Below the pieces are notes generated by a model, which was not told where the DNA came from, did no database searches, and worked only from the letters and a program-made list of their open reading frames with translations. Shown piece by piece: positions 7,176-28,556 of a DNA stretch of 64,000 bases (position 1 is its first letter; each line of letters begins with the position of its first letter). The stretch comes from a virus. The stretch spans positions 1 to 64,000 of the IMG/VR virus record IMGVR_UViG_3300046463_000247. The stretch is one strand, 5' to 3'. The position numbers were made by a program, and so were the translations under genes.

Positions 7176-8048
7176 TTAGCTCCAGTACATCTTGCCGCCC
7201 GTGGCGCTCGGGTGAAACTTGGGGAAGTCTACGCCCACCTCGTGCAGATTAGCGCCAGCCGCGAGCGCGGCAGGGTACTCCTTCTGCCAGTAGTACTCTC
7301 CCATGTGCGTGACCCGGTTGCCCCCGCCCTCACCTTCCCCGTTGGGCACCCATTCCAGCCATACGCGGCGCGGCTTCGGGCAGACCTCGATGCAGAACAC
7401 GTTGCTCTTTTTCCACATCATCAGCAGGTCCACGTCGCAGTTCAGCATGATCCAGCGCGCGAAATCCTCCTTGCTCACCTCACCGTCCTCGACGCAGAAC
7501 GGCAGGATGTCCACGCGCGCACAGGGCTGGTTGCCGAAGGTGCCCCGGTCCCACTGGTGCGGGTCATGGCTGGTGGACTTCTTCGCGGGTGGATACCCGG
7601 CCTCGATCAGCGCGCGGCTCTGGTAACCGTAGGTGATCGCGAAGCGCCCGAACTGCGCCAGCACCGGCTCCAGCACGCGCTCGCAGATGGCCCGGCCACC
7701 GGCAATCGCCAGTTCGAGGTTGTCGCTCGGGAAGTTCGGAATGCCCAGCGCATCAGCGCGGTTCGAATACAGGAAGTCCCGCAGGATGAAGTTCTTGGAC
7801 AGGCGGGTGCGGCTCTGTTGCTCGCGCATGGCGATCAGGGCGTGGCTGTCCTTGCTGATTTGATACGGCATGCTCGCCTTTATGGTCGGTTGGTCCCCGC
7901 ACACCTGGTCGATGTGCTTGCAGCGTTTGTGCGCCTTGACGAAGCGTGGGCACGTGCAGGTCTTGCGGACGGGATCGACATGATAGATCACGGAAGGGTT
8001 GCTCTCGCTTTGCACCTCAACGAGCCCTTCAAACAGCGATCCCTGCAT
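7176..8048 (-). CDS. SWIM zinc finger fused to peptidase M15-like domain
   Basis: CTCPRF..CKH (SWIM); RLSKNFILRDFLYS..IPNFP..VLEP..ITYGYQS..H..D. Confidence 0.6.
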   Translation of the reverse strand: MQGSLFEGLVEVQSESNPSVIYHVDPVRKTCTCPRFVKAHKRCKHIDQVCGDQPTIKASMPYQISKDSHALIAMREQQSRTRLSKNFILRDFLYSNRADALGIPNFPSDNLELAIAGGRAICERVLEPVLAQFGRFAITYGYQSRALIEAGYPPAKKSTSHDPHQWDRGTFGNQPCARVDILPFCVEDGEVSKEDFARWIMLNCDVDLLMMWKKSNVFCIEVCPKPRRVWLEWVPNGEGEGGGNRVTHMGEYYWQKEYPAALAAGANLHEVGVDFPKFHPSATGGKMYWS

Positions 8049-8201: not shown

Positions 8202-9407
8202 TCAGATTTTGACCGTCTGTCCAGTCACTTCCAGCCGTGCCTTCAGCAGGTAGCCCGGCAGTATCTGGGTCGAGCACAGTTGCAGCCACTCACCGACGAC
8301 TTCGGCCTGATGGCTCTCGTCCACGTTCTCCAGCATCGGCGCGAAGCGTAACACCCGCACGGCCTGCGCAATGATGCGGGACGGCCCGTAGGCGACCTGT
8401 GCGGTGAACCAGTCCGTCTCCAGCACGCGGATCGCCTGGCCGATCAGGAACGCGCGTGTCGCGGGCATGGTGACGCCGTGGTGGGCGAGGAACTTCTGGG
8501 CCGCACCCGCTTCCGCCTCAATGCGCCGGGCGACCATCTGGCCTTCCGCGATGCCCGGGTTGTACGCGTAGTCCGGCACTCCGGCCACGATATTCAGTTC
8601 CGGGGGCGAGTACGGACCCAGCGCGTCGCCAGGACCCAGCACGTCCGGCATGTGCACGCGGTCCATCGTCAGCAGGCTCGTCACTGACAGGCTCGGGTCG
8701 TCCTGAAGCAGCTTGACCAGCCCGTCGCAGCGCAGCAGCGCCACGGCCTTGGCCCGCACCACCGAACTCTGCACGGCGGCAGCGCTCGCGTCCACGCCGA
8801 TCTCGTCAAAGTGGCCCAGCAGGAAGTTGCCTGCGGCCATGCGCGCGGTCAGTTCCCGGATCAGGGGCATCAGGCCGGGTCCACTGAAGACGTTCGTCCT
8901 GAAGCTGGCCCGGTAGGTGTCGAGCACTTCTTCCGCCGTCATGCAGGCGAACGAGTTAATCAGCCCTTCGACGTGCGGCAGGCCCCGCGTGAACAGTTCT
9001 TCGAGGTCCGCGCCCAGGCGGCTCGGCGTATGCGCGCACAGGCAGGCGATCACGTAGCTCACGTAGCCGCGCAACTCGTCCAAGCTCTCATGGGTCTCGC
9101 GCAGCATGCACACGGCGTCGCGCGCCACCTGCTCGGCGGGGAGCGCGTAGTGCTGGGTGATGTAGCGCACCAGCGTCGGCACCAGCATGGCCGTGTAGCC
9201 GCCGTTGACGAGACCCTGGGCGTACTTGGTGGCCGTGTTCAGGTCCAGTCGTCGCAGCGAACAGATCACCGCCTGTACCGCCTTGGGCACGCTCGACGGA
9301 TTCTTCACGATGATGCTGTGCTGAACGTACGCGCCGGACTGGTGGAACCACGCGTCCTGATGTTCTTCAGAGAACGGCGGTGCGTCCATCGCTGCAACCG
9401 TAGACAT
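8202..9407 (-). CDS. hypothetical protein, weakly RarA/MgsA C-terminal-like
   Basis: 401 aa; AVICSLRRLD..A and VPDYAY segments; no Walker A. Confidence 0.6.
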   Translation of the reverse strand: MSTVAAMDAPPFSEEHQDAWFHQSGAYVQHSIIVKNPSSVPKAVQAVICSLRRLDLNTATKYAQGLVNGGYTAMLVPTLVRYITQHYALPAEQVARDAVCMLRETHESLDELRGYVSYVIACLCAHTPSRLGADLEELFTRGLPHVEGLINSFACMTAEEVLDTYRASFRTNVFSGPGLMPLIRELTARMAAGNFLLGHFDEIGVDASAAAVQSSVVRAKAVALLRCDGLVKLLQDDPSLSVTSLLTMDRVHMPDVLGPGDALGPYSPPELNIVAGVPDYAYNPGIAEGQMVARRIEAEAGAAQKFLAHHGVTMPATRAFLIGQAIRVLETDWFTAQVAYGPSRIIAQAVRVLRFAPMLENVDESHQAEVVGEWLQLCSTQILPGYLLKARLEVTGQTVKI

Positions 9408-9997
9408 TACGACCTCCAGAGCGGTTCGTACTTGGGGACTTCACGTTCGGTGATGCGCGGGCGGATCAGTGCGTTATACGGGCCTTCCAGGCGCGCGTAG
9501 CCGGTTTCTGGATCAAACGCATGCACCCTGTACGCGTCGCTCGTGTGCTTGTGCACGAGGTACAGTTCCCGCTGGTCGCCGCTCTTGGCGAAGGCGCTCA
9601 GGGCGTCGAGGATGGTTTCGACTTTTTCGCCGCTGGTTTCGACTTGGCCTTCGATTTGGGCTTGGACTTTCGGGCTGCTGGCTTCGACGGGGACGCCGAC
9701 TTTTTCGCTGCTGGCCTGCGTCCCCGGCTGCTGTGGGGAGCCACCATCGTCCTTGCCCAGACCAGCGGCGAGCGCGAAGGCTTCTTCCTTGGTCAGGCTC
9801 GGTGCGGCCAGTGCATCGCTGACCCCGGTGCCCGGGATGTCCTGCGAGGGTAGCTCGGCCTGCACAGGAGCCGCGCTGACGGGCTCGGGTGTGCTGGCAG
9901 GTGCCTTGGGCTCGGTGGGCTGCTCGGGAGCGGCTGCGGGCGGTGTGGCGGTTGCCGGGGCGGTCTCACCCTCGGGCCGGTGAATTTTTAATGCCAT
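9407..9997 (-). CDS. Pro/Ala-rich hypothetical protein
   Basis: ATG 9997 after AGGAG; low-complexity N-terminus with globular C-terminal ~60 aa. Confidence 0.7.
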   Translation of the reverse strand: MALKIHRPEGETAPATATPPAAAPEQPTEPKAPASTPEPVSAAPVQAELPSQDIPGTGVSDALAAPSLTKEEAFALAAGLGKDDGGSPQQPGTQASSEKVGVPVEASSPKVQAQIEGQVETSGEKVETILDALSAFAKSGDQRELYLVHKHTSDAYRVHAFDPETGYARLEGPYNALIRPRITEREVPKYEPLWRS

Positions 9998-10081
9998 TCT
10001 TCTCACTCCTTGAGAGGCGGATCGTCCGCATAGCACTTATTTTAGCACAATCGGCGTATTGTCTAACGCACTTTGTGGGTT

Positions 10082-10728
10082 AAGACGCTCGGGCGTGACT
10101 CCGAGAGCGCAGGATTCAAACCGGCCTCGCTTGAACCGGGAGGCTTTGCCCTACTTAGGGAGCATCTAGCGGCACAGGCCCTTGCGGGTTACTGGGAGGG
10201 TAAATGGTCTCTTTTTCGGACTGGCTGGTCTGTGGCGTACCCGACATACGAGAGGATTTAGCGCCCTTGTCGCTCTATTCCCCGATCTTTCACGGGCTCT
10301 CACGGCAGTTAGTCCCTGCTGTCACCAGCAGTCACCGCGCTGGCACACCTGCATCGCCACCAGATACCCGACTTACGGGCGTCGTCTTACAGCAGCAGTC
10401 CACCGGTCATAACGCGAGGGATTCAGGGTCGAAGGAACCCCTACCCATATTCTGAAATGAACGCCGTCCGATTTCAGGCGGGCCTCTATTGGTCCCCGGA
10501 CGGCTCTACCCCTGAACTGGACTGCTGGTGTAAGACCTCAGTGAACCGGACAGCACGGGCGCGCAATGCGATGTCCCCGTGACAGGTATTGAGTGGACCC
10601 CGCTGTACGGGGCTGAACACGGGTCGTTATCTGCCACGAAAACTCCCGTCCCACTGGGTTCCTATCCGTTTCACTGAAGCCTTGCAATTGATTGCAAACC
10701 TCAGCCAGCGGGCCGGAGCCCGCCGCAC
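10082..10728 (-). ncRNA. putative large structured non-coding RNA
   Basis: No credible gene; 19-bp stem 10384-10402/10518-10536 with one mismatch, nested helices, minus-strand GNRA loops (GCAA, GUGA); ends approximate. Confidence 0.6.
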
Positions 10729-10734
10729 TGCGTG

Positions 10735-11538
10735 TTACTTTACTGCCTGCTTCACTTCGATGTCCCACTCGGGGAACAGTTCGGCGATCTTCGTCAGGGC
10801 CGCTTCGAAGCCGAGCGTCTTGACCTGCTCTTCGAACGGGACTTCCGTGCCGCCCGTTGCGCCGCCGATCACGCCTGCGAGGTAACCCGCGCAGATGTTT
10901 TCGAGCGCCACGCTGTCAAATTCGGTGCCGGTCTCGGCCTTGGCCTTCGAGAGCGCCGACTTGATCGTGTTCGCCTGGTCGTTCTTCACAGCGAACTTCA
11001 GGCTCACGTTGTCGCTCGTGGTGGACGACGAGGTTTCGCCCGCTTCACCCGTGACCGTGCCCTTCAGCAGCTTCTGGAGTTCCACGACCGTCAGGCCCTC
11101 AGCCTTGGCGACCATTTCGTCCAGGTTCTCCAGCGTCAGGTGTTCGGCGAGGTCCTTGAGCTTGGTCCAGCCGAGGTGGCTGACCTTCTCCCACGGAATC
11201 TGCTTCACAATCAGGTGATCGTAGATGTCAATCAGGTAGCGCGCCTTGCGCGACTTGAAGCCAAACTTCTCTTCGACATACGCGTCGAACGATTCGAAGC
11301 CTTCGAACCACGAGTTGTCCTGGATCAGCTTGAGCACACCGCCCAGCCGCAGGTACGACACTTCGATGGTCTCGTTCAGCTTCTCAGCCTCGCCGAGAGC
11401 CTTGGGCTTCGACATGGACTGGATTTCGGCGGCAGTGTCAAAGAACAGATCGCCGGTCGCGGTCTTGCCCTTGGATTTGGCCTTGCCGACCACGACGGTC
11501 TCGGGCTTCTGTTCTTGCACTTGCTCTGCTGCGCTCAT
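10735..11538 (-). CDS. helical hypothetical protein, possibly DNA-binding
   Basis: 267 aa; strong codon bias; own promoter; FESFDAYVEEKFGFKSRKARYLI HTH-like segment. Confidence 0.75.
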   Translation of the reverse strand: MSAAEQVQEQKPETVVVGKAKSKGKTATGDLFFDTAAEIQSMSKPKALGEAEKLNETIEVSYLRLGGVLKLIQDNSWFEGFESFDAYVEEKFGFKSRKARYLIDIYDHLIVKQIPWEKVSHLGWTKLKDLAEHLTLENLDEMVAKAEGLTVVELQKLLKGTVTGEAGETSSSTTSDNVSLKFAVKNDQANTIKSALSKAKAETGTEFDSVALENICAGYLAGVIGGATGGTEVPFEEQVKTLGFEAALTKIAELFPEWDIEVKQAVK

Positions 11539-11604: not shown

Positions 11605-11633
11605 ATAATAAGCACCCGTGCCCGGTTTGTCAA
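11605..11633 (-). promoter_or_regulatory. sigma70-type promoter
   Basis: TTGACA-N17-TATTAT. Confidence 0.75.
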
Positions 11634-11658
11634 ACAGTCTTTGCAATCAATTGCAAAT

Positions 11659-27905: not shown

Positions 27906-28556
27906 CTACTTTGCAATTGATTGCAATCCGGGCGGTTCGCTCGCCGACAGCCCCATCGACGCTAGAGCCTGATCGAACAGTTCCTTGTTCTTGCCATACC
28001 ACTGCTGCCACGCGAGGATTACTGCGCCTCGCTCGCGGGCTTCGGAGAGGTTGAATCGGTCGATGTCAGCGACTTCAGAGAGCGTAACGCTGGTCGCGGC
28101 GTCAACATCGACGGGTCGGCTTCCGGCCACGCTGCCGTCGCCGGGGTCAAGCGAGAGGTCGTGGAGGTACACGAAGCCAGCAGGAATGCGGCAAGCAACA
28201 TCAGCGTGAGGCGTAACATAGTCGGTCACCTTCTGTTTCTGGAGTTGGACGGTTCGGGCCTGGGCCTTCGCGAGGTCGGCTTTAAGCTGGAGATTGACGG
28301 TCTTCGACTGGACAAGCTGCGCGAACTGGGCCTGTGCTGCCTGGGTGCGCTCCTGCGCGGCCTGCGCTTCATACTTGGTGGTGGTATCGGCGACGCCCCG
28401 CGCGTACGCGGCGTTCAACTCGTGGTGGCCGTACCACAGCAGCGCCCCAAACACGGCCAGCGTGCCCAGTGCATACCACACCCAGCGCGGCACCCGCAGC
28501 AGGTTGGCGAATACGTCCTTGAACAGGGCGACGAAGATTTCGAGCACGAATGGCAT
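27906..28556 (-). CDS. i-spanin (Rz-like)
   Basis: N-terminal TM, coiled coil, C..P.GFV..H; downstream of endolysin. Confidence 0.8.
   Translation of the reverse strand: MPFVLEIFVALFKDVFANLLRVPRWVWYALGTLAVFGALLWYGHHELNAAYARGVADTTTKYEAQAAQERTQAAQAQFAQLVQSKTVNLQLKADLAKAQARTVQLQKQKVTDYVTPHADVACRIPAGFVYLHDLSLDPGDGSVAGSRPVDVDAATSVTLSEVADIDRFNLSEARERGAVILAWQQWYGKNKELFDQALASMGLSASEPPGLQSIAK
28019..28219 (-). CDS. o-spanin lipoprotein (Rz1-like), embedded in Rz
   Basis: Signal peptide with lipobox LASC, Pro-rich mature part, alternative frame inside Rz. Confidence 0.8.
   Translation of the reverse strand: MLRLTLMLLAAFLLASCTSTTSRLTPATAAWPEADPSMLTPRPALRSLKSLTSTDSTSPKPASEAQ

What the first reader, a model, noticed from the sequence alone, without database searches (positions are those of the whole stretch)
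10082..10728. About 650-nt gene-free, densely base-paired region: candidate large structured ncRNA
This is the largest gap in an otherwise tightly packed genome. Seen: GTCTTACAGCAGCAGTCCA (10384-10402) pairs with TGGACTGCTGGTGTAAGAC (10518-10536) at 18 of 19 positions and encloses further helices (TTCAGGG/CCCTGAA, CTGAAAT/ATTTCAG). Flanking hairpins include CTCGG/CCGAG, CCCTA/TAGGG, CTGCTG/CAGCAG, ACGGG/CCCGT, CCCCG/CGGGG and GCGGGC/GCCCGC. Minus-strand loops read GCAA and GUGA (GNRA), matching the direction of transcription. It follows the promoter-driven gene 10735-11538 and carries a 14-bp motif near its 5' end. Its size resembles phage-borne large RNAs such as ROOL and GOLLD, but I cannot assign a family.
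Basis: partly seen in the sequence, partly recalled or inferred. Interest (0 to 1): 0.8.

Follow-up and report, generated by a model that had tools for sequence, protein, structure and literature searches.

The report
Orphan structured spacer RNA in phage
The longest non-coding stretch of this 98-kb phage genome is real, but only about 310 of its 740 bases fold unusually well, it matches no known RNA family and has no relatives within reach, so it is an unproven candidate for a small phage RNA element and not a ROOL- or GOLLD-like giant RNA.

Summary
The gap is real. 737 nt separate the stop of gene 10735-11538 (-) from the true ATG of the next gene (9997, -). It is the longest stretch of the whole 98,045-bp genome without codon periodicity. 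No open frame in it matches any protein family.

Excess RNA structure is limited to about 10384-10686. Domain A (10529-10686) is a rod-like hairpin with z -5.1 on the minus strand and -2.2 on the plus strand. The joint minus-strand fold uses 18 G.U pairs and the plus-strand fold 4, which fits an RNA read from the transcribed strand. The other ~300 nt (10067-10383) fold no better than shuffles.

There is no Rfam match (ROOL, GOLLD, tmRNA, tRNA, introns, ribozymes), no GGA enrichment, no reverse transcriptase and no integrase. Nothing similar was found in 37 related phage records, 401 Pseudomonadota genomes, IMG/VR or JGI metagenomes. Covariation could therefore not be tested.

In relatives the next gene starts about 100-130 nt after a terminator, so the gap is lineage-specific.

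My best reading (0.4) is a read-through intercistronic spacer whose two stem-closed domains act as a processing or stabilising element or give a processed RNA. Interest is modest.

The parts
11605..11634 (-). Sigma-70-type promoter of the upstream gene (TTTGACAA, then TATTAT). A copy of the family palindrome (11641-11656) lies just upstream of its -35 box.
10735..11538 (-). Upstream 'anchor' gene, 267 aa, PHROG 17202 of unknown function. It is the last gene of the conserved RuvC / 215-aa protein / anchor module. Its predicted fold weakly resembles the ParB HTH DNA-binding domain.
10708..10723 (-). GC hairpin GCGGGC-UCCG-GCCCGC, 11 nt after the stop codon. It is terminator-like but has no U-run, so read-through is expected.
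   Evidence: no minus-strand terminator called
10682..10697 (.). One copy of the 16-bp family palindrome TTGCAAT(TG/CA)ATTGCAA. There are 26 copies in the window and 47 in the genome. It is the only part of the gap shared with relatives.
10529..10686 (-). Domain A: a ~158-nt rod-like imperfect hairpin closed by a 25-bp helix (10529-10553 / 10662-10686). Its stability is strand-specific.
10384..10536 (-). Domain B: a ~153-nt multi-branch domain closed by the 18/19 helix (10384-10402 / 10518-10536). It shares 8 nt with the closing helix of domain A.
10067..10383 (-). About 317 nt of non-coding spacer with no excess structure, no open frame with homologues and no repeats.
10039..10066 (-). Promoter of the phage's own family for the next gene: TTAGACAA, a 15-16-nt spacer with TGTGC, then TAAAAT.
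10001..10015 (-). Shine-Dalgarno hairpin UCUCA-AGGAG-UGAGA of the next gene. The start codon is at 9995-9997.
9407..9997 (-). Downstream gene, 196 aa, with no family match. It is not found next to the anchor gene in any relative.
   Evidence: The tblastn synteny check used a wrong frame for this gene (9407-9996, one base short), so its absence beside the anchor gene in relatives was not validly tested there.

Best explanation
The gap is a lineage-specific, transcribed intercistronic spacer. It is not one large RNA.

Inferred route of expression: transcription from the strong promoter at 11634-11605 runs through the anchor gene. It passes a hairpin that lacks a U-run (10708-10723) and one copy of the family palindrome (10682-10697). 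It then enters two adjacent, stem-closed RNA domains of about 155 nt each (10529-10686 and 10384-10536).

Inferred function: the long closing helices (25 bp with G.U pairs, and 19 bp with one mismatch) are the kind of double-stranded RNA that RNase III cuts and that blocks 3' exonucleases. I therefore infer one of two roles. The core may act in cis to end, process and stabilise the mRNA of the conserved recombination module. Or it may be cut out as one or two stable RNAs of about 110-150 nt.

The remaining ~317 nt (10067-10383) are plain spacer. They end at the next gene's own promoter (10066-10039) and Shine-Dalgarno hairpin.

Shown: the non-coding nature, the structure excess and its strand bias, the promoters, and the absence from relatives. 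Inferred: transcription by read-through, RNase III processing, and any function.
For: - Non-coding: there is no codon periodicity. Ten open frames have no Pfam or PHROG match. The 83-aa ORF gives only low-complexity hits among 1.84 billion proteins. tblastx against relatives finds nothing.
- Structure: domain A has z -5.08 with 0 of 200 shuffles as stable, on the minus strand, against -2.16 on the plus strand. Domain B has z -3.60 and -4.38. 122 control windows across the genome have mean 0.18, sd 1.08 and minimum -3.75.
- The 19-nt repeat is the best inverted repeat in the window.
- Strand bias: 18 G.U pairs in the minus-strand fold against 4 in the plus-strand fold.
- All 18 promoters of the phage's family lie on the minus strand, including 11634 upstream and 10066 downstream. 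No minus-strand terminator is called in the gap.
- In 32 relatives the first 165 nt after the anchor stop are also unusually structured (median z about -2; 13 of 32 at or below -2.9). These are mostly ordinary terminators, with some long hairpins. A structured 3' end after this gene is therefore a family habit, although the sequences differ.
Against: - No transcript data could be obtained.
- No homologue is available, so there is no covariation. An 18/19 near-perfect helix looks young rather than long maintained.
- Domain B is equally stable on both strands, so it could be a DNA-level palindrome.
- The domain windows were chosen on the structure, while the control windows were arbitrary.
- The G.U asymmetry could come from transcription-linked C-to-T mutation bias and not from selection.
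- A processing site does not explain why about 300 nt of unstructured DNA are kept in a compact genome.
Confidence: 0.4

Rival explanations
1. A stand-alone, new phage non-coding RNA of about 300-600 nt that acts in trans. It would sit in the slot where related phages carry tRNA genes or a tmRNA gene.
For: - It has the same structural and strand-bias evidence as above.
- This locus holds RNA genes in relatives. DLP5, Summit and DLP3 carry five tRNAs 1.7 kb downstream. L019 carries a bona fide tmRNA about 630 nt downstream, scoring 138 bits on RF00023. L033/L034 have a tRNA-Cys call by ARAGORN 72 nt downstream; Rfam scanned L033 and gave no tRNA match at gathering score.
- This genome has no tRNA at all.
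Against: - No promoter follows the palindrome at 10682, and no terminator ends the RNA.
- There is no Rfam match, even at E<=10.
- Covariance models of both domains find only themselves in 37 related records.
- Half of the gap is unstructured.
Confidence: 0.2
2. Functionless leftover DNA at the family's variable junction. It would have been brought in by illegitimate recombination or by a small palindromic (MITE-like) insertion. The helices would be inherited or accidental and would not be used as RNA.
For: - The conserved module ends at the anchor gene in all 41 relatives, and the anchor gene's other downstream neighbours (401-aa gene 8202-9407; 290-aa gene 7176-8048, met again only in L039) are not found beside it in relatives; the 196-aa gene was queried out of frame there and was not validly tested.
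- In most relatives the next ORF starts about 100-130 nt after the stop, so the extra ~600 nt are lineage-specific.
- The 19-bp repeat is nearly perfect and strand-symmetric.
- The sequence is an orphan everywhere searched.
Against: - Phage genomes rarely keep 700 nt of junk, and this is the longest aperiodic stretch of the genome.
- There is no trace of a former gene and none of a former tRNA or tmRNA.
- It is a single copy with no second copy in the genome. No target-site duplication is visible at the repeat ends.
- Domain A is clearly more stable on the transcribed strand.
Confidence: 0.25
3. A DNA-level element next to the recombination and replication genes, such as a replication origin, a protein-binding site or a recombination site.
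For: - It lies beside the UvsX/RecA-like, RuvC and exonuclease module.
- It contains a long inverted repeat that is equally stable on both strands, and one copy of the dispersed palindrome.
Against: - There are no iterons or direct repeats and no AT-rich unwinding stretch. GC is 0.58-0.60 throughout.
- No tyrosine integrase is present in the genome.
- The strand bias of domain A points to RNA.
Confidence: 0.08
4. A CsrB/RsmZ-like sponge RNA for the phage's own CsrA-like protein. The lead came from earlier notes on this genome.
For: - Earlier notes report a CsrA-like gene and AGGAG-loop hairpins on ribosome-binding sites in this genome.
- One such hairpin sits at 10001-10015, directly after the gap.
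Against: - GGA is not enriched on the minus strand: 11 observed against 12.5 expected.
- AGGA occurs once against 3.0 expected, and AGGAG not at all.
- Most GGA triplets lie inside stems and not in loops.
Confidence: 0.02
5. The region is filled by small protein-coding genes with unusual codon usage.
For: - There is an 83-aa plus-strand ORF (10204-10455) with a GGGAGGG box 3 nt before its ATG.
- There is a 43-aa minus-strand ORF (10506-10637) behind GGGAG.
Against: - There is no codon periodicity.
- There is no family match, and only low-complexity hits among 1.84 billion proteins.
- All recognised promoters are on the minus strand.
- The minus-strand ORF lies inside the rod-like hairpin of domain A.
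Confidence: 0.03

Closest known systems
Intercistronic RNase III processing hairpins of phage T7 early mRNA, and the long processing stalks that flank rRNA or tRNA precursors (from general knowledge)
   Same: These are long imperfect helices of about 20 bp or more. They lie between genes on a read-through transcript, enclose or end an RNA segment, and sit at the 3' end of a transcription unit.
   Different: T7 sites are about 60 nt, whereas these domains are about 155 nt each with complex interiors. No cleavage data exist here. There is no sequence relationship.
ROOL and GOLLD large phage-associated RNAs (Rfam)
   Same: Both are phage-borne and non-coding, and the locus lies where relatives carry tRNA genes. 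The size of the whole gap is comparable.
   Different: There is no covariance-model match even at E<=10. Only about 310 nt are structured. Nothing in the structure is conserved in relatives.
tmRNA and tRNA genes found at the same locus in related phages (L019 tmRNA; the tRNA cluster of DLP5, Summit and DLP3)
   Same: The genomic slot is the same, downstream of the anchor gene, and the strand is the same.
   Different: ARAGORN and Rfam find no tRNA, tmRNA or fragment of one in the gap or anywhere in this genome.
Miniature inverted-repeat elements, such as Correia/NEMIS-type elements of about 150 bp with terminal inverted repeats (from general knowledge)
   Same: Domain B is a ~153-bp unit bounded by 19-bp near-perfect inverted repeats, and it folds as a hairpin when transcribed.
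   Different: It is a single copy with no visible target-site duplication. It was not found in 37 relatives, 401 Pseudomonadota genomes, IMG/VR or JGI metagenomes.

Membership tests
ROOL / GOLLD / other large Rfam RNAs (OLE, HEARO, raiA, RNase P, 6S, group I/II introns) | A match to the family's covariance model at or near its gathering score | tested here: not met
   cmscan of the window at gathering score gave 0 matches. At E<=10 on 9800-11000, 10360-10720 and 10030-10400 it gave only mraW, BTH_s19, psaA and PyrR207, at 12-15 bits and E 1.9-8.
tmRNA / tRNA (or decayed remnants) | A tRNA-like domain or cloverleaf detectable by ARAGORN or by the Rfam CL00001 models | tested here: not met
   ARAGORN found 0 genes in the window and in the whole genome. 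There is no tRNA or tmRNA row at E<=10. Positive control: the tmRNA of relative L019 scores 138 bits.
Conserved structured ncRNA (any new family) | Homologues with compensatory base changes in the proposed helices | not testable with these tools
   No homologue was found by BLAST, nhmmer, tblastx or two covariance models.
Conserved structured ncRNA (any new family) | Folding energy beyond shuffled controls, stronger on the transcribed strand | tested here: met
   This holds for 10384-10686 only. It is not met for 10061-10480.
CsrB / RsmZ-type CsrA sponge RNA | Many GGA or A(N)GGA motifs exposed in hairpin loops | tested here: not met
   GGA occurs 11 times against 12.5 expected, AGGA once against 3.0, and AGGAG not at all. 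Most of them are in stems.
Retron msr-msd / DGR template / group II intron RNA | A reverse transcriptase gene in the genome; for a DGR also a second repeat copy | tested here: not met
   PF00078 has no match in the genome, and the controls ring. The gap has no repeat elsewhere in the genome.
MITE-like mobile element | Multiple copies in one or several genomes, and target-site duplications | tested here: not met
   It is a single copy. It is absent from the searched collections. No duplication is seen at the repeat ends.
RNase III processing site | Cleavage by RNase III within a ~20-bp double-stranded RNA segment of a real transcript | not testable with these tools
   Helices of 19 and 25 bp exist.

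The most novel reading that the evidence does not exclude
The 10384-10686 core is a new, lineage-specific two-domain phage RNA. It would be released from a read-through transcript by cuts in its long closing helices. It would occupy the genomic slot that related phages use for tRNA and tmRNA genes, and would have a function of its own, for example in host takeover or anti-defence.
Probability: 0.2. Interest if true: 0.55.

Novelty: new member of a known kind. Interest (0 to 1): 0.3.

Why it matters
If the core is a functional RNA, it would add an orphan phage RNA at a locus that related phages use for tRNAs and a tmRNA. That would suggest the slot is a general landing place for RNA cargo in this widespread group of ~100-kb siphophages (Delepquintavirus and its uncultured relatives). 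As things stand, the useful results are negative. The gap is not ROOL, GOLLD, tmRNA, a CsrA sponge or a hidden gene. Only half of it is structured. The claim cannot be advanced without transcript data or close relatives.

Tried and rejected
Searches and tests that found nothing:
- Rfam at gathering score and at E<=10 found no family.
- ARAGORN found no tRNA or tmRNA in the window or the genome.
- blastn and megablast against phages and plasmids found no match.
- blastn, nhmmer and tblastx against 44 related loci found only the 16-nt palindrome.
- BLAST over the whole records of 37 relatives found only the palindrome.
- Covariance models R1 (domain A) and R2 (domain B), run over the same records, hit only themselves.
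- 401 Pseudomonadota genomes gave two hits at E about 1e-3, which is chance level.
- Exact 19- and 23-mers in IMG/VR gave 0 hits.
- A 19-mer in JGI metagenomes gave two hits in unrelated AT-rich contexts.
- A close-relative search in IMG/VR with the anchor protein found none.
- Pfam and PHROGs on ten open frames of the gap gave nothing below E 0.01.
- HMMER of the 83-aa ORF against 1.84 billion proteins gave only multi-stretch, low-complexity hits.
- The GGA/CsrA-sponge test was not met.
- No reverse transcriptase or tyrosine integrase is in the genome.
- There is no repeat of the gap elsewhere in the genome.
- A search of earlier scan notes by the gap sequence returned nothing.

One slip of my own: the downstream gene was translated from 9407-9996, one base short, and so in the wrong frame. 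Its correct range is 9407-9997. The other five queries of that call are valid.

Full report
CONTEXT
The window is the first 64 kb of a complete 98,045-bp IMG/VR phage genome with direct terminal repeats. The gene upstream of the gap (10735-11538, minus strand, 267 aa, PHROG 17202) is 54-58% identical to hypothetical proteins of Stenotrophomonas phages DLP_5, Summit and DLP_3 (genus Delepquintavirus). It is more distantly related to proteins of Rhodobacter, Rhizobium and Vibrio siphophages. Its nearest homologue in the large protein collection, at 75% identity, comes from a 98.8-kb contig of a Burkholderia ubonensis assembly. The order RuvC, 215-aa protein, anchor gene is kept in nearly all 41 related loci that I fetched. 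What follows the anchor gene differs from lineage to lineage.

IS THE GAP REAL?
Yes. The listed ORF 9407-10036 starts at a GTG. The real start is the ATG at 9995-9997, preceded by an AAGGAG box inside a small hairpin at 10001-10015. From the stop codon at 10735-10737 to that ATG there are 737 non-coding bases.

Position-specific GC content differs by 0.3-0.6 between codon positions in the flanking genes. It differs by at most 0.16 across 9990-10740. In a scan of the whole genome this is the longest stretch without periodicity: 1100 nt including window edges, against 850 nt for the next longest.

Ten stop-to-stop frames of 41-89 codons have no Pfam or PHROG match below E 0.01. The one ORF with a plausible ribosome-binding site (83 aa, plus strand) gave only three multi-stretch, low-complexity hits among 1.84 billion proteins. 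tblastx against the related loci found nothing. The region is therefore not a set of hidden genes and not a recently decayed gene.

IS IT DENSELY BASE-PAIRED?
Only in part. The whole 695 nt fold with z -3.66 on the minus strand and -1.76 on the plus strand, with 20 shuffles each. Sliding 240-nt windows show that the signal comes only from about 10300-10780. Windows from 10061 to 10480 have z between -0.1 and +1.3.

Two domains carry the signal.
- Domain A (10526-10690) is a rod-like imperfect hairpin. On the minus strand it has -73.5 kcal/mol and z -5.08, and none of 200 shuffles is as stable. On the plus strand it has -63.8 kcal/mol and z -2.16, and 8 of 200 shuffles are as stable. Its minimum-energy and centroid folds nearly coincide.
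It has z -3.60 on the minus strand and -4.38 on the plus strand.

As a control I folded 122 arbitrary 165-nt minus-strand windows across the genome. They have mean z 0.18, sd 1.08 and minimum -3.75. The comparison flatters the domains, because their limits were chosen on the structure. Even so, the unselected sliding windows reach -4.24. The 19-nt repeat is the best inverted repeat within 300 nt in the whole 64-kb window.

The joint minus-strand fold uses 18 G.U pairs and the plus-strand fold only 4. This fits a structure that matters, or at least exists, as RNA read from the minus strand. Transcription-linked C-to-T mutation bias could add to this asymmetry.

The two closing helices share 8 nt (10529-10536), so they abut or compete. 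The 5' arm of domain B can also pair perfectly over 11 nt with 10323-10333.

TRANSCRIPTION
All 18 promoters of the phage's own family (tgTTTGACAA, 16-17 nt, TAnAAT) lie on the minus strand. One (11634-11605) drives the anchor gene. Another, slightly degenerate, lies at 10066-10039 and drives the next gene.

Between them the minus strand has no intrinsic terminator by the consensus scan. The hairpin at 10708-10723 is GC-rich but is followed by UGGCUGAGG and not by a U-run. No promoter follows the palindrome at 10682-10697. The core is therefore most simply reached by read-through from the anchor gene. This is an inference, because no read data could be obtained.

WHAT IT IS NOT
- Rfam found no family at gathering score in the window, and only 12-15-bit noise at E<=10 in three overlapping sub-searches. 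This excludes membership of ROOL, GOLLD, tmRNA, tRNA, RNase P, 6S, the group I and II introns and the known ribozymes as Rfam models them.
- ARAGORN finds no tRNA or tmRNA anywhere in the genome.
- No reverse transcriptase is present, which argues against a retron, a DGR or a group II intron. No tyrosine integrase is present, which argues against an attP site.
- Earlier notes on this genome report a CsrA-like protein and AGGAG-loop hairpins on ribosome-binding sites. I therefore tested a CsrB/RsmZ-type sponge. GGA occurs 11 times against 12.5 expected, AGGA once against 3.0, and AGGAG never. Most GGA triplets lie in stems. The idea is rejected.

RELATIVES
Every search gave the same answer: the only part of the gap shared with any relative is the 16-bp palindrome.
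- blastn, nhmmer and tblastx against the related loci.
- BLAST over the whole records of 37 relatives.
- Covariance models of both domains over the same records.
- The phage and plasmid collections.
- 401 Pseudomonadota genomes.
- Exact words in IMG/VR and JGI metagenomes.

The GTDB species genomes hold no closer relative of the anchor gene. The contigs of the nearest homologues could not be fetched. Covariation, the decisive test, could therefore not be run.

WHAT RELATIVES HAVE AT THIS PLACE
In most relatives an ordinary terminator follows the anchor gene, and the next ORF starts about 100-130 nt after the stop. In 32 relatives the first 165 nt after the stop have a median z of about -2, and 13 of them are at or below -2.9. 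Later windows scatter around 0. A structured 3' end after this gene is thus a family habit, but a large gap is not.

Further downstream the locus varies and often carries RNA genes. DLP_5, Summit and DLP_3 have five tRNAs. L019 has a tmRNA about 630 nt downstream, scoring 138 bits. L033/L034 have a tRNA-Cys called by ARAGORN 72 nt downstream, which the Rfam scan of L033 did not confirm at gathering score.

INTERPRETATION
The gap is best described as five parts in a row:
1. a weak terminator-like hairpin;
2. one copy of the family palindrome;
3. a ~310-nt structured core of two stem-closed domains;
4. ~317 nt of plain spacer;
5. the next gene's promoter and Shine-Dalgarno hairpin.

The reading I favour (0.4) is that the core works on the read-through transcript. 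Its 19- and 25-bp helices are the kind of double-stranded RNA that RNase III cuts and that protects 3' ends. They could separate and stabilise the mRNA of the conserved module, or release one or two stable RNAs.

The rivals are as follows.
- A stand-alone trans-acting RNA (0.2). It shares the structural evidence and fits the RNA-rich slot, but it has no promoter or terminator of its own.
- Leftover DNA from a recombination or a small palindromic insertion at the variable junction (0.25). This fits the orphan status and the nearly perfect, strand-symmetric 19-bp repeat. It fits poorly with the compactness of phage genomes and with the strand bias of domain A.
- A DNA-level site (0.08).
- Small genes (0.03).
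- A CsrA sponge (0.02).

VERDICT
There is a real, strand-biased structured core. It is half the claimed size, belongs to no known family, is not conserved in the phage family, and is untested as a transcript. Its interest is modest until close relatives or RNA data are available.

Noticed in passing
window, 26 copies (for example 10682-10697, 11641-11656, 27911-27926); 47 copies in the 98-kb genome: The 16-bp palindrome TTGCAAT(TG/CA)ATTGCAA occurs 26 times in the window, against 0.13 expected by chance. It recurs in dozens of copies in many of the related phage records searched (none turned up in three of them). In 8 of the 18 family promoters it lies within 20 nt upstream of the -35 box. Elsewhere it follows terminator hairpins or lies in coding-like sequence. 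This resembles the dispersed operator sites of a global regulator such as KorB of plasmid RK2 (from general knowledge).
   Followed up: partly
window 10735-11538 (-): The AlphaFold2 model of the anchor protein (mean pLDDT 77) gives weak Foldseek matches to the HTH DNA-binding domain of ParB/Spo0J bound to parS (6t1f, 4umk, 6s6h; probability 0.7-0.9 but E about 1). This makes it a candidate binder of the dispersed palindrome and not an RNA-binding protein. A copy of the palindrome sits just upstream of its own promoter.
   Followed up: partly
whole genome, minus strand (for example 11634-11605, 10066-10039, 27901-27873, 3593-3565): Eighteen very similar sigma-70-type promoters (tgTTTGACAA, 16-17 nt often with TTGTG, then TAnAAT) all lie on the minus strand. 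Most are followed 25-45 nt later by a 'caaggagtg' ribosome-binding site.
   Followed up: partly
L019:3269-3603 (+), IMGVR_UViG_3300025930_000065: A related uncultured phage carries a full tmRNA gene (RF00023, 138 bits; tag peptide ANYALPAAA) about 630 nt downstream of the anchor-gene homologue.
   Followed up: no
whole genome G000: This genome has no tRNA gene at all. Its Delepquintavirus relatives carry five at the homologous locus, including a suppressor tRNA with anticodon CTA.
   Followed up: partly
window 10001-10015 (-): The Shine-Dalgarno sequence of the gene that starts at 9997 is the AGGAG loop of a 5-bp hairpin (UCUCA / UGAGA).
   Followed up: no
window 10323-10333 versus 10520-10530: An 11-nt perfect complement offers the 5' arm of domain B a second pairing partner, 57 nt beyond the 3' arm in the direction of transcription. 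This could allow two alternative folds, or it could be chance in CAG/CTG-rich sequence.
   Followed up: no
L040:3048-3290 and L045 (Azospirillum sp. RU38E provirus): Downstream of the anchor homologue there is a tandem duplication of a ~100-nt GC-rich, strongly structured unit (-145 kcal/mol over 240 nt).
   Followed up: no
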